Assembly (NCBI RefSeq): GCF_000026545.1
Contig: NC_011601.1
Origin: Escherichia coli O127:H6 str. E2348/69
Lineage (GTDB): Bacteria > Pseudomonadota > Gammaproteobacteria > Enterobacterales > Enterobacteriaceae
DNA: 64,000 nt
Reading direction: 5' to 3' (one strand)
Position numbers and translations under genes: made by a program. The stretch's first letter is position 1. The number at the start of each line of letters is the position of its first letter. Below the pieces are notes generated by a model. The model was given only the letters and a program-made list of their open reading frames with translations. It had not been told where the DNA came from and made no database searches. Shown here piece by piece: positions 9,567 through 12,657 of this stretch.

Positions 9567-10449
9567 ATGAGTTTTGCAGCTACTGATTATCCATCCGGCG
9601 CACTAGCTGGATCGGGTACACACAATGTGACTTTGAGCGGCAGCGCAGTTCCTGATGGAATGTTACTGTTTGCAAACTTAGGGGGGACAGAAACAGTAGG
9701 GGAACTATTTACTTATTCTATTAAATTAAAAACTCCTGACATCCTGAACCTGGACTATGTTTCCCCCGCAGCCAACCTGCAGCTCAAACCGATGGTGGGC
9801 AAAGATCTGTGCGTCAATATCGAACTGGATGGCGGCGGAAAACGGTATATCAGCGGGCTGGTGACGGCGGCACGCGTGGCCGGTCATCAAGGACGCTCGG
9901 TGGTGTATGAACTGCGACTCGAACCGTGGTTAAAAACACTGACCCACACTAGTGACTACAAAGCGTTTCAGAATAAAAACGTGGTGGACATCCTGGATGA
10001 GGTACTGGATGAGTACCCCTGGCCAGTGGAAAAACGATTGGTAGAAAACTATCCGACTCGCGCCTGGCAGGTGCAGTACGGTGAAACAGATTTCGATTTT
10101 ATTCAGCGCCTGATGCAGGAGTGGGGTATCTACTGGTGGTTTGAGCACAACGAGAACAGTCATACGTTAGTGCTGGCTGATGCCATTAATGTCCACAAGG
10201 CATGCGCAGATTCGCCGCTGGTGTGTTATTACCAGAAAGGGCTGAAACTGGACAAGGAGTTTATCCATACCATCACAGCAAATGAAAGCCTGCGCAGCGG
10301 ACAGTGGGTGCTGAATGATTTCGACTTTATGAAGCCGCGTTCACTGCTGAAGAGCACTGTGGCTAATCCGCGTGAAACCGGCCTTGCTGAATATGAGTAC
10401 TACGAATGGCCGGGAGACTACTTCACAAAGAGTGAAGGTGAAATGCTGA
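9567..10449 (+). pseudogene. vgrG: vgrG (T6SS spike) N-terminal fragment
   Basis: gp27-like N-terminal region incl. ...[28 protein letters not shown]...; homology ends near residue ~300 and the frame then runs into nonsense; the gp5/OB-fold and C-terminal parts are absent. Confidence 0.7.
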
Positions 10450-11606
10450 CACGCATCCGAATGGAAGAACAGCGTAGCCCCGGTAGTCGGGTACAGGGCA
10501 GCGGCCAGGCAGCTTTACGACCCCGGCGGGCGACTGAAGCGCAGGGAGACATACAGCGGGATGCGCGGGGTGGTTCCGGACACGTTCACGGACCGGCAGT
10601 ACAGCTACAGCGGCGAGGATGAACTGCTGAAGACGCGGCACAGCCGGCGGGGGGAAACGGACTACTTCTATGACACCACGGGGCGCATCACGGCGTGTCG
10701 CTCGGAGGATGAGGGGTATCTGGCGAGCTGGGAGTACGACGCGGCGGGCAACCTGCTGGACAGGCGCGCGGGGGGAAGGGCCACGGCAGAAAACAGCGTG
10801 GTGCTGTTCAACCGGCTGATGTCTTACCGTGGTGTGCACTACCGTTATGACGAATTTGGCCGTGCGGTGGAAAAGGAGGGGCGGAGCGGAACACAGAGTT
10901 ACCGTTATGATGCGGAACACCGGATGGTGGAAGTGACGACAGCGCGGGAGACATACCGGTATGTGTACGATGCGCTGGGGAGGCGGACGGAAAACAGCAC
11001 ATCAGCCCTGACGGTAAACCGTACAACCGGACAAAATTTTTATGGGACGGAATGCGGCTGGCGCAGGAGAACAGGCCGGAGGGAATAAGCAGCCTGTATA
11101 TCTACAGCGACCCGGGAAGTTATGAACCGCTGGCGCGGTTGGATAAGGCGGGGAAAGAGGGACCGAACCGGATACTGTATTTTCACACGGATGTGAACGG
11201 TGCTCCGGAAGAGATGACGGACAGCAACGGGAAAATTGTGTGGGAGACGGGGTATCAGGTCTGGGGTAACACGATACAGGAGAAGGACCACGGCGGGGTG
11301 GAGCAGAACCTGCGATACCAGGGGCAGTACCTCGACAGGGAAACGGGGCTGCACTACAATCTGCACAGGTACTATGATCCGGATGTCGGGCGGTTCATGG
11401 TAACGGACCCGATAGGGCTGCGGGGCGGGTTAAACTTATATGCTTATGCGCCGAATCCGTTAACGTATATTGATCCTCTTGGTCTTTGTAAATTAAGGGG
11501 AAGTAATGGGCGCTTTAGAAGTGCACAGAATATTCAGGAAGAAATAGGCGGCCTGCCCAATTTTTCAGGAAAAACCCCCAGGGCAAATACGGCAAACTTT
11601 GCGTAA
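10450..11606 (+). pseudogene. rhs 3' core fragment with frameshift, ending in the DPxGL junction and a short C-terminal tip
   Basis: YD repeats in frame 1 ([10 protein letters not shown]..., YRYDEFGRAVEKEG..., YRYVYDALGRRTE) continue in frame 0 (PYNRTKFLWDGMRLAQE...LHYNLHRYYDPDVGRFMVTDPIGL...PLTYIDPLGL); frame switch at roughly 10980..11000 near an A run. Confidence 0.7.
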
Positions 11607-11916
11607 TCGAGTTTATTCTTCGGTACAAGCGCATAGTGGAGGAGAGGTCTGGACAAAAGCATTACCTGACGGAAATACTGTTGCAGTGAGAATTGACCCA
11701 GCAAATCCTCGCTCACCTTCACATTATGCCGATGCTGTACCTCATGCTCATATTGAAACAGTTCCAACATCCAGTGTTTCTAATGGGAATTATCGTCCGA
11801 GAGACGTGATGGGCAGGCATACTGCCACTGGTGGGGGGTCTGACCGAGGAACGAATCCGAATTATAACGCTGATGTTCACATTCCAATGTCTCCGGGACG
11901 ATCCCCATATAATTAA
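11599..11916 (+). CDS. uncertain ORF; possibly an out-of-frame continuation of the Rhs C-terminal toxin domain
   Basis: 105 aa ORF with TTG start and no clear RBS, beginning just downstream of A/C homopolymer runs at the end of the rhs tip. Confidence 0.25.
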   Translation: MRNRVYSSVQAHSGGEVWTKALPDGNTVAVRIDPANPRSPSHYADAVPHAHIETVPTSSVSNGNYRPRDVMGRHTATGGGSDRGTNPNYNADVHIPMSPGRSPYN

Positions 11917-11927
11917 TGTGAGGTTTT

Positions 11928-12206
11928 ATGAATATCCGAAATCAATATAATGAAGCCTTAAATAAATTAGATGTTGATGTTAATGATGGTTTGAGAGATT
12001 TAATAAACATATATTGTGTGGCTATTGATTCTTTTGAAAATGATATCGTTGACTCGATTGCTTTATACGTGATTGATATGGAAAATAAAGATACTTGTCG
12101 ATATCTACAAGAAATATTATCAGAGAATAAAGATCCTTATTTAGTAAAAGAGTTTAATGTATGGATAAAAGAAATTAAGAAAAATATTAAAATAAAAGCC
12201 GGGTAA
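11928..12206 (+). CDS. small AT-rich ORF in the position of an Rhs immunity gene
   Basis: 92 aa; GTGAGG RBS 6 nt upstream of ATG; very low GC; directly downstream of the rhs C-terminal tip. Confidence 0.45.
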   Translation: MNIRNQYNEALNKLDVDVNDGLRDLINIYCVAIDSFENDIVDSIALYVIDMENKDTCRYLQEILSENKDPYLVKEFNVWIKEIKKNIKIKAG

Positions 12207-12232
12207 GAAATTAAATCTTCCCGGCTTTTTAT
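12196..12232. terminator. rho-independent terminator candidate
   Basis: AAGCCGGG...CCCGGCTT stem followed by TTTTT. Confidence 0.4.
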
Positions 12233-12235
12233 TAT

Positions 12236-12436
12236 TTAACTCTCGTTCAGCACACTAAACATCGCGTCACACATCCCCTTAATCGCCTGTTTAACCTGAT
12301 AAAGTTCCCTGCGCAGTTCCTGTACTTCGTTGTTATCCGCAAGCAGGATCAGACAACCTTTCGAGATCTTCACGGTAACGCCCGTGCCGATCTCAAATCC
12401 CGCTTCTCTCAGCCATTTGGCGCTGATTTTGAGCAC
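12236..12436 (-). pseudogene. 5'-truncated SymE-like (AbrB/SpoVT-fold) toxin homolog
   Basis: ...PVLKISAKWLREAGFEIGTGVTVKISKGCLILLADN... resembles the SymE core [33 protein letters not shown] (recalled); an in-frame stop lies just upstream, so ~45 N-terminal residues are missing. Confidence 0.5.
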
Positions 12437-12450
12437 TGGCGCGTGATGCA

Positions 12451-12657
12451 GTGGGCCAGCTCATGGCAAAGGAGACAGCAGATAGCCGTACGGAATATGT
12501 CTATGATGCGGCAGACCTGCTACTGGAAATCCGCTGCAGATGGTCGTATGCCCGGGAAACGGACGCACCGGAGATTATCTGCTTCAGTTACGACAGACTG
12601 GGACAGTTGCTGACCGAGGAGACGGTGCAAAAATTCAAAATTATCCATTTAACCTAA
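12451..12657 (+). pseudogene. orphan Rhs YD-repeat fragment
   Basis: 68 aa ORF with YD-repeat-like units (TEYVYDAADLLLEI, FSYDRLGQLL); no full gene context. Confidence 0.35.

What the first reader, a model, noticed from the sequence alone, without database searches (positions are those of the whole stretch)
11460..12232. Rhs C-terminal toxin tip split across frames, followed by a candidate immunity gene
After the DPxGL-type junction the in-frame tip is only ~39 residues, while ORF 11599..11916 in another frame encodes a further ~105 residues with no RBS. Consecutive A and C runs lie exactly where the frames diverge, so the toxin domain may be frameshift-inactivated. The 92-aa AT-rich ORF 11928..12206 with a good RBS is positioned like an RhsI immunity protein. 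Neither product is recognisable to me.
Basis: inference. Interest (0 to 1): 0.45.

Follow-up and report, generated by a model that had tools for sequence, protein, structure and literature searches.

The report
Frameshifted Rhs DNase tip plus immunity gene
This is the decayed end of an E. coli Rhs toxin gene: one extra C splits a toxin domain that looks like a distant relative of the PT7 DNase toxin, while the small protective (immunity) gene behind it is still intact, so it is an ordinary kind of relic carrying a poorly described toxin family.

Summary

- **Source.** The window is E. coli O127:H6 E2348/69, between ansP and pptA.
- **Frameshift.** After DPLGL (11472-11486) the tip runs 39 codons to a stop at 11604-11606. 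It continues in the +1 frame to 11916. In-frame alleles in seven other E. coli genomes lack one base in the C run at 11575-11579. One of them sits in a full-length 1576-aa PAAR-Rhs. All 14 E2348/69-like genomes carry the extra C. dN/dS of the joined frame is 0.16-0.24, so it was coding until recently.
- **Immunity gene.** The acidic 92-aa ORF follows the tip in every related locus examined and diverges along with it, as a cognate immunity gene would.
- **State of the locus.** It is a relic: a vgrG' fragment abuts an 'rhs fragment, the core has a second frameshift, and symE is short.

The parts
9567..10505 (+). vgrG N-terminal fragment (context). It abuts the Rhs core remnant.
   Evidence: Pfam Phage_GPD, E 3.6e-86. 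RefSeq annotates it as a pseudogene missing its C-terminus.
10508..11486 (+). Remnant of the 3' part of the Rhs core (YD repeats, RHS core motif), ending in DPLGL at 11472-11486.
   Evidence: Pfam RHS_repeat and RHS hits. Collinear homology to the intact 1576-aa Rhs of JNE151685 begins at 10508. GC is 56-66%.
10991..10994 (+). A4 run carrying a 1-nt deletion relative to the intact allele (A5). This is the first frameshift, inside the core remnant.
   Evidence: Gapped alignment with L013, sequence, and the switch of ORF frames 10561..11088 / 11052..11606.
11487..11606 (+). Toxin tip, first part (39 codons in the core frame, then TAA).
   Evidence: Translation. Residues 1-31 match in-frame homologs.
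11570..11579 (+). A5C5 homopolymer pair. The C run 11575-11579 holds one extra base, which is the tip frameshift.
   Evidence: Alignments with 14EC033 and JNE151685. 14 genomes carry this allele and 7 carry the allele 1 nt shorter.
11580..11916 (+). Toxin tip, second part (+1 frame, residues 32-142 of the joined tip). It carries the predicted active site: R68 11689-11691, D70 11695-11697, H86 11743-11745, H88 11749-11751, E90 11755-11757, H131 11878-11880.
11920..11923 (+). GAGG ribosome-binding site of the immunity gene, 4 nt before the ATG.
   Evidence: Sequence.
11928..12206 (+). Candidate cognate immunity gene (92 aa, pI 4.6, AT-rich). A 1-nt deletion in the A run at 12180-12184 changes its C-terminus from ...KKKY to ...KKNIKIKAG.
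   Evidence: 47 homologs, all in Enterobacterales. Conserved position after the tip. Co-divergence with the tip. Charge. Indel.
12194..12232 (.). Hairpin followed by a T run, with an A run before it. It overlaps the immunity stop codon and is probably a bidirectional terminator shared with the convergent symE.
   Evidence: RNA fold -18.8 kcal/mol, z -5.5, 0 of 200 shuffles as stable.
12236..12436 (-). Convergent symE-family gene, short here (66 aa against 86-109 aa in related modules).
   Evidence: Pfam SymE_toxin, 1e-08, profile positions 23-52 only. RefSeq annotation. Collinear homology to L013 ends at 12459.

Best explanation
The region is a decayed orphan Rhs toxin/immunity module in E. 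coli E2348/69.

- **Toxin.** The toxin tip (joined length 142 aa after DPLGL) is a C-terminal polymorphic-toxin domain. By fold, profile and active-site residues it is a distant, enlarged relative of the PT7 Mg2+-dependent DNase toxin. In intact form it is carried at the end of a PAAR-Rhs protein, as in strain JNE151685. From established knowledge of PAAR-Rhs effectors, it would be delivered by a type VI secretion system, released after the DPxGL cleavage site, and would degrade the recipient's DNA. The predicted metal site is built from D70, H86, H88 and H131, possibly with R68 and E90.
- **Inactivation.** In this genome the toxin is dead. One extra C in the run at 11575-11579 shifts the frame after residue 31 and ends translation at 11604-11606.
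- **Other damage.** The carrier is also destroyed. Only a vgrG fragment abutting the last third or so of the Rhs core remains, and that core has its own 1-nt deletion at 10991-10994.
- **Immunity.** The downstream acidic 92-aa protein is the cognate immunity protein. It is still intact and most likely serves, if expressed, as orphan immunity against kin strains that fire the intact toxin.

Shown: the frameshift, its fixation in the lineage, the past coding status of the joined frame, family membership, the fold match and conserved residues, and the synteny and co-divergence of the immunity gene. Inferred: DNase activity, type VI delivery, neutralisation by the 92-aa protein, and present-day expression of the immunity gene.
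For: **Identity and context.** The window is 100% identical to three E2348/69 assemblies, with RefSeq annotation.

**Frameshift.**
- A one-base difference in the C run separates the window from in-frame alleles.
- Of 21 genomes with the tip among 5426, 14 carry the shifted allele and 7 the in-frame one.
- A full-length PAAR-DUF6531-Rhs carries the in-frame tip.
- dN/dS of the joined frame is 0.16-0.24.

**Toxin family.**
- 120 cluster representatives were found, with the domain at or near the C-terminus in nearly all (two hits place it near the N-terminus).
- Carriers include Rhs, PAAR, Tox-PAAR-like, eCIS-core, PT-TG and TPS/haemagglutinin/PT-VENN proteins.
- R68, D70 and H86 are invariant. 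K57, H88, E90 and H131 are nearly invariant.

**Profile.** hhalign between the tip family and the PT7 family gives probability 94.1% and E 1.2e-7. It pairs D70/D37, H86/H47, H88/H49 and H131/H73.

**PT7 biology.** D37A, H47A and H73A mutants were made, point mutations abolished toxicity, and PT7 shows EDTA-sensitive DNase activity without RNase activity (bioRxiv 10.1101/2021.10.19.465003).

**Immunity.**
- It occupies the same position after the tip in E. coli, Brenneria, Pectobacterium and other Enterobacteriaceae.
- Tips 66-74% identical are followed by homologs 37-40% identical.
- Immunity pI is 4.6 and tip pI is 10.
- The gene is present in 38 genomes against 21 for the tip.

**Relic status.**. 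E2348/69 has only one place matching the 5-kb query, which includes the core.
Against: - Foldseek against the PDB did not return 8OWU at any useful E-value.
- The tip family is about 45 aa larger than PT7. It has extra conserved residues (K57, R68, E90) whose role is unknown, so the substrate could differ.
- The 92-aa protein shows no similarity to any PDB chain, which by inference includes PIM7, or to any Pfam family.
- No promoter above chance was found for the immunity gene, so its expression is unproven.
- The E2348/69 allele also has V at the nearly invariant G42. A repaired tip might therefore be impaired.
Confidence: 0.74

Rival explanations
1. The split is a sequencing or assembly error in a homopolymer, and the gene is actually intact.
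For: Homopolymer indels are a common error class. The site is an A5C5 run.
Against: The same 101-nt sequence is 100% identical in three independent E2348/69 assemblies and ten other strains. A fourteenth genome is 99% identical at the same length. The module has further lesions that no single error explains. RefSeq also marks the core as frameshifted.
Confidence: 0.02
2. The frameshift is functional. CCC-AGG-G (11575-11581) would act as a +1 slippery site with a rare AGG codon, or as a phase-variable tract. Some full-length tip would then be made from the internal ORF starting at 11052, acting with the immunity protein as an intracellular toxin-antitoxin-like pair.
For: A +1 shift at CCC-A restores exactly the homologous frame, giving ...GKTP-GQIRQ. 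From my own knowledge, CCC-N sites and rare AGG codons are prone to +1 shifting. Orphan Rhs modules acting as TA-like elements are reported in Salmonella (PMC7043789, title and abstract seen).
Against: In-frame alleles have ACT-CCA-GGA at this place and no shift site, so the site is not conserved. All 14 carriers have the same length, so no ON/OFF variation is seen. The same module carries two other homopolymer indels, plus one more indel at the edge of the homology next to symE, as expected from neutral decay. C5 is short for phase variation.
Confidence: 0.03
3. The tip is a real toxin domain, but its resemblance to PT7 is convergent or too remote to transfer function. It could be an RNase or another enzyme.
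For: Foldseek misses PT7. Profile-sequence scores are 8-11 bits. There is an insertion of about 25-30 aa after HxH and an extra conserved K/R/E. Weak scattered hits to PASTA, HicA and PBECR3 occur in single members.
Confidence: 0.2
4. ORF 11599..11916 and ORF 11928..12206 are independent small genes or noncoding, unrelated to the Rhs tip.
For: Gene callers in public data list the 105-aa ORF as a stand-alone protein (P0002, P0007, P0008). RefSeq leaves 11509-11927 unannotated.
Against: Homologs continue in one frame from the Rhs core through this stretch. dN/dS is 0.16-0.24 in the joined frame. There is no RBS before the TTG at 11599. The family domain starts upstream of 11599.
Confidence: 0.01

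Closest known systems
PT7(Bc)/PIM7 polymorphic toxin-immunity pair (PDB 8OWU; Nachmias et al., bioRxiv 10.1101/2021.10.19.465003)
- Same order of motifs: helix with (K/T)xEI..L, two strands, RIDPP/RIDPA, HxH, (D/N)xxG(N), HIP.
- PT7's D37, H47 and H73 align with D70, H86 and H131.
- Followed by a small acidic immunity gene.
   Different: - The tip here is about 142 aa against 78 aa. It has an N-terminal extension and an insertion of about 25-30 aa after HxH.
- It has extra conserved residues: K57, R68, E90, and K89 in most members (I in the E. coli clade).
- It is carried on Rhs, PAAR, CdiA-type and eCIS proteins in the members examined, rather than the LXG domain (T7SS) the paper reports for PT7.
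- The two families are not linked by profile-versus-sequence search or by Foldseek.
- The immunity protein is unrelated by sequence.
Orphan Rhs-CT/RhsI modules of Enterobacteria (Poole et al. 2011, PMC3150448; Koskiniemi et al. 2014, PMC3967940)
   Same: - Core fragment ending in DPxGL, then a variable tip of lower GC, then an AT-rich immunity gene.
- Found in arrays downstream of a main rhs gene in other strains.
- The immunity gene is kept more often than the toxin.
   Different: - Here no full-length rhs sits upstream. A vgrG fragment abuts the core remnant, and E2348/69 shows no second place matching the 5-kb query. Recombinational reactivation therefore looks unlikely.
- The tip itself is frameshifted.
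E. coli K-12 rhsE pseudogene locus (from my own knowledge; not tested here)
   Same: The chromosomal neighbourhood is the same (ansP ... pptA-yddH-nhoA), and it holds a degenerate rhs element.

Membership tests
Rhs C-terminal toxin / immunity module | YD-repeat core ending in the PxxxxDPxGL demarcation motif | tested here: met
   Pfam RHS_repeat 7.5e-14 and RHS 2.2e-15. DPLGL lies at 11472-11486.
Rhs C-terminal toxin / immunity module | Variable tip after DPxGL, followed directly by a small immunity ORF, with a stepwise fall in GC | tested here: met
   GC is 56-66% in the core, 45-49% in the tip and 24-28% in the immunity gene. An 11-nt spacer with GAGG separates tip and immunity.
Rhs C-terminal toxin / immunity module | Complete carrier protein (N-terminal PAAR or delivery region plus closed Rhs shell) | tested here: not met
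   Only the stretch from 10508 onward is homologous to the 1576-aa Rhs of JNE151685. A vgrG fragment lies upstream and the core has its own frameshift. The feature is met in the homolog L013.
Rhs C-terminal toxin / immunity module | Tip is toxic and the downstream protein neutralises it specifically | not testable with these tools
   Only indirect support is available: synteny, co-divergence and opposite charges.
PT7 DNase toxin family (8OWU) | Shared three-dimensional fold, tested with Foldseek | tested here: not met
   8OWU does not appear in the listed Foldseek hits. No match reached E of 0.001 or better.
PT7 DNase toxin family (8OWU) | Sequence membership by profile-versus-sequence search | tested here: not met
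   Scores are 8-11 bits in both directions. PT7 is absent from the exhaustive search and from the PDB profile searches.
PT7 DNase toxin family (8OWU) | Remote homology by profile-profile comparison | tested here: met
   hhalign gives probability 94.1%, E 1.2e-7, over 81 columns. Against the single PT7 sequence it gives 60%.
PT7 DNase toxin family (8OWU) | Residues mutated in the PT7 toxicity study (D37, H47, H73) are conserved | tested here: met
   They align with D70, H86 and H131, which are invariant or nearly invariant in 76 family members and present in the window allele.
PT7 DNase toxin family (8OWU) | Mg2+-dependent, EDTA-sensitive DNase activity | not testable with these tools
   The activity is known for PT7 only.
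PT7 DNase toxin family (8OWU) | Cognate immunity protein of the PIM7 type | tested here: not met
   A profile of the 92-aa family finds no PDB chain at E of 10 or better except an unrelated histone deacetylase. It has no Pfam family.
Programmed +1 ribosomal frameshift | The shift site and two-frame arrangement are conserved among homologs | tested here: not met
   Homologs are in one frame and lack the CCC-AGG site.

The most novel reading that the evidence does not exclude
The extra C is not simply a lesion. CCC-AGG-G could be a +1 shift-prone site (P-site tRNA-Pro slipping before a rare AGG codon). Translation from the internal ATG at 11052 would then occasionally yield the complete toxin. 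Together with the intact immunity protein, this would make the relic behave as an intracellular toxin-antitoxin-like or stress-responsive module rather than a dead gene.
Probability: 0.03. Interest if true: 0.6.

Novelty: new variant of a known kind. Interest (0 to 1): 0.33.

Why it matters
For E2348/69 itself the finding is ordinary: a dead Rhs toxin with a surviving immunity gene, which is how these loci usually decay.

The useful by-product is the toxin family:

- It has about 120 clusters at 50% identity and is spread over T6SS (Rhs, PAAR), T5SS (CdiA-type) and eCIS carriers.
- It has no Pfam, NCBIfam or PADLOC model and is left unannotated in RefSeq.
- It can now be tied to the PT7 DNase fold, with a specific, testable active site (D70, H86, H88, H131).
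- It is paired in Enterobacterales with an equally unannotated immunity family.

This gives annotators a handle on a recurrent 'hypothetical' pair. It also suggests that E2348/69-like strains may be immune to a toxin that rare E. coli strains such as JNE151685 still encode in full-length form.

Tried and rejected
**Family and sequence searches**
- Pfam, NCBIfam, PADLOC and PHROGs scans of the joined tip and of the 92-aa protein gave nothing above noise. DUF3592 (E 0.012) and Ephrin (E 0.029) were rejected as chance.
- Family-wide Pfam scans gave only scattered sub-threshold PASTA, RecX, HicA and PBECR3 hits. These come from the N-terminal helix motif and were rejected.
- Sequence and profile searches of the PDB with the tip found nothing.

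**Structure**
- Foldseek against the PDB found nothing.

**Other collections and features**
- tblastn of the tip against plasmids found no match.
- The promoter scan around the immunity gene found no more sites than shuffled sequence.
- The consensus terminator scan missed the hairpin at 12194-12232 because of its long apical region. Folding shows it clearly.

**Procedural failures**
The full PT7 sequence was instead recovered from the PDB with an X-padded query built from primer sequences in the paper's supplement.

**Not done**

Full report
**Source and context.** The window is 100% identical to three assemblies of E. coli O127:H6 E2348/69. RefSeq places the region between ansP and pptA-yddH-nhoA. 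It annotates the following:
- two hypothetical genes (8463-8993, 9007-9345);
- a vgrG pseudogene lacking its C-terminus (9567-10505);
- a frameshifted Rhs core pseudogene lacking both ends (10495-11507);
- nothing at all from 11509 to 11927;
- a 92-aa hypothetical protein (11928-12206);
- a convergent SymE-family gene (12236-12436).

**The observation.**
- DPLGL lies at 11472-11486, in the frame of ORF 11052..11606. Exactly 39 codons follow before TAA at 11604-11606.
- The +1 frame is open from about 11547 to 11916 and contains the listed TTG ORF 11599..11916.
- A5 (11570-11574) and C5 (11575-11579) lie in the overlap of the two frames.
- The 92-aa ORF has GAGG at 11920-11923, and its GC is 24-28% against 56-66% in the core.

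**The frameshift is real, fixed and recent.**
- Strain 14EC033 carries a 94%-identical copy that reads GGAAAAA-CTCC where the window reads GGAAAAACCCCC. It translates in one frame from the Rhs core through DPLGL to ...GRFPYD*.
- Strain JNE151685 also reads in one frame. There the tip ends a full-length 1576-aa PAAR-DUF6531-Rhs protein, preceded by a DcrB-family gene and followed by an 87-aa homolog of the 92-aa ORF and by symE.
- Among 5426 complete E. coli genomes, 21 contain this stretch. Thirteen records are 100% identical to the window over 101 nt and a fourteenth is 99% identical at the same length; these include the three E2348/69 assemblies and strains from human, dog, pig and monkey. 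Seven genomes have the allele 1 nt shorter. This excludes a sequencing error and shows no length variation within the carrier lineage.
- Nei-Gojobori counts on the joined frame give dN/dS of 0.16-0.24 between E2348/69 and the in-frame alleles, the same as between two in-frame alleles (0.21). Both halves therefore evolved as one coding sequence until recently.
- One sign of relaxed constraint is V42 (11611-11613), where about 90% of the family, including the close in-frame alleles shown, has G.

**The locus is a relic.**
- Collinear homology to the intact JNE151685 rhs begins only at 10508, directly after the vgrG fragment, and ends at 12459.
- Within it the window differs by four single-base indels: A4 instead of A5 at 10991-10994 (the core frameshift), the extra C at 11575-11579, A5 instead of A6 at 12180-12184, and one next to the symE gene at the edge of the homology, about 12445.
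- The third indel changes the end of the immunity protein from ...KKKY* (87 aa) to ...KKNIKIKAG* (92 aa).
- E2348/69 shows only one place matching the 5-kb query that includes the core. I infer that no second closely related rhs core is available for recombination.

**What the tip is.**
- Word-based search found only nine close relatives.
- An exhaustive HMMER search of 1.84 billion representatives, using a profile of those relatives, found 120 clusters. The domain is at or near the C-terminus in nearly all of them; two hits place it near the N-terminus.
- Carriers include Rhs/YD, PAAR, Tox-PAAR-like, eCIS core (DUF4157), PT-TG and TPS/haemagglutinin/PT-VENN proteins. This is the signature of a polymorphic-toxin domain.
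- No Pfam, NCBIfam, PADLOC or PHROGs model covers it.
- A 76-sequence alignment shows R68, D70 and H86 invariant. K57, G62, A81, H88, E90, H131 and I132 are nearly invariant. The motifs are VRxDP, PHxH(K/I)E and HIP. All are present in the window allele.
- With this alignment AlphaFold2 gives pLDDT 92.9 and pTM 0.87. A first model from seven sequences gave 69.4.

**Link to PT7.**
- The paper describing PT7 reports a novel fold and EDTA-sensitive endo-DNase activity with no RNase activity. It also reports a Mg2+-like density in the pocket and says point mutations abolished toxicity. Its primer table lists D37A, H47A and H73A (bioRxiv 10.1101/2021.10.19.465003).
- I recovered the PT7 sequence from the PDB and collected 51 homologs.
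- Profile-profile comparison of the two families gives probability 94.1% and E 1.2e-7 over 81 columns. It pairs D70/D37, H86/H47, H88/H49 and H131/H73.
- Against this, Foldseek does not find 8OWU, and profile-versus-sequence scores are only 8-11 bits.
- I therefore treat the tip family as a remote, enlarged relative of PT7. It has an N-terminal extension and an insertion of about 25-30 residues after HxH. It is not a member of the PT7 family in the narrow sense. A metal-dependent nuclease mechanism is the best inference.
- The tip is basic (pI 10), which fits nucleic-acid binding.

**The 92-aa protein.**
- It has 47 homologs, all in Enterobacterales, and no family or PDB match.
- In every context fetched it follows the tip or a remnant of it:
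  - intact tip in Brenneria;
  - tip split by an IS element in Pectobacterium;
  - tip truncated at the 5' end in three Enterobacteriaceae loci;
  - orphan modules in E. coli 14EC033, 06-00048 and PE164;
  - the full-length gene in JNE151685.
- Tips that are only 66-74% identical (P0057, P0004) are followed by homologs only 37-40% identical, with a shared DIYxxAxDxxExDIxDxIxxY core. That co-divergence is what a cognate toxin-immunity pair shows.
- It is acidic (pI 4.6).
- It occurs in more E. coli genomes than the tip does, 38 against 21, as orphan immunity genes do.
- A stable hairpin with a T run overlaps its stop codon (-18.8 kcal/mol, z -5.5).
- No promoter above chance was found, so present expression is inferred, not shown.

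**Rivals.**
- Sequencing error is excluded by the 14 concordant genomes.
- Separate small genes are excluded by the in-frame homologs and by dN/dS.
- A programmed or phase-variable shift cannot be fully excluded. CCC-AGG-G would, on a +1 slip, restore exactly the homologous frame. However, the site is absent from in-frame alleles, shows no length variation, and sits in a module carrying other homopolymer indels. I give it about 3%.
- The main residual uncertainty, about 20%, is whether PT7's DNase chemistry transfers to this larger family.

**Verdict.** The object is an ordinary decayed Rhs orphan module. Its added value is that it exposes an unannotated toxin family and immunity family and links the toxin to the PT7 fold.

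Noticed in passing
window 8463-8993 and 9007-9345: The 176-aa ORF matches the effector (metallopeptidase) domain of P. aeruginosa VgrG2b (PDB 6h56, E 2.9e-18, residues 4-138). The next ORF weakly matches NCBIfam 'putative T6SS immunity periplasmic lipoprotein' (5.2e-07, below cutoff). Together they look like a second T6SS effector-immunity pair, stand-alone, just upstream of the vgrG fragment.
   Followed up: partly
window 10505/10508: Junction where the vgrG N-terminal fragment abuts the last third or so of an Rhs core. One deletion appears to have removed the vgrG C-terminus and most of rhs.
   Followed up: partly
window 10991-10994, 11575-11579, 12180-12184, about 12445: Three of the four single-base indels that separate this module from the intact JNE151685 allele lie in A or C homopolymer runs. 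The one at 12180-12184 lengthens the immunity protein from 87 to 92 aa with a new tail, KKNIKIKAG. The fourth (about 12445) lies at the edge of the homology, next to symE.
   Followed up: yes
window 12236-12436 (- strand); also L003, L005, L009, L010, L012, L013, L014, L015: A convergent symE-family gene follows the tip-immunity module here and in most other modules of orphan Rhs arrays, of any tip type, in several genera. The copy here is short: 66 aa, matching only profile positions 23-52. The reason for this regular association is unclear.
   Followed up: no
window 11575-11581: CCC-AGG-G: a proline codon followed by a rare arginine codon. A +1 slip here would restore the toxin frame exactly. 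This is probably coincidental.
   Followed up: partly
window 11611-11613: V42 in the E2348/69 allele, where G is nearly invariant across the toxin family (RGY motif). This is a possible second inactivating change, or decay after the frameshift.
   Followed up: partly
L006 6338-7986; L008, L009 and L010 7792-7986: Other ways the same toxin was lost while the immunity gene was kept. An IS (rve transposase) is inserted in the tip in Pectobacterium brasiliense, and the tip is truncated at the 5' end to residues 78-142 in three Enterobacteriaceae loci.
   Followed up: yes
public protein sets (P0002, P0007; similar short entries P0005, P0006, P0008): Gene callers list the second half of the frameshifted tip as a free-standing protein starting MRNR... 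(P0002, 105 aa; P0007 likewise). Other short entries (P0005, P0006, P0008) start at the equivalent position or in another frame and may be further shifted or truncated alleles. The database therefore probably holds artefactual 'proteins' for this domain.
   Followed up: partly
window 12437-12631: RefSeq annotates a partial 'hypothetical protein' pseudogene here. Its translation contains a stop codon and has no obvious identity.
   Followed up: no
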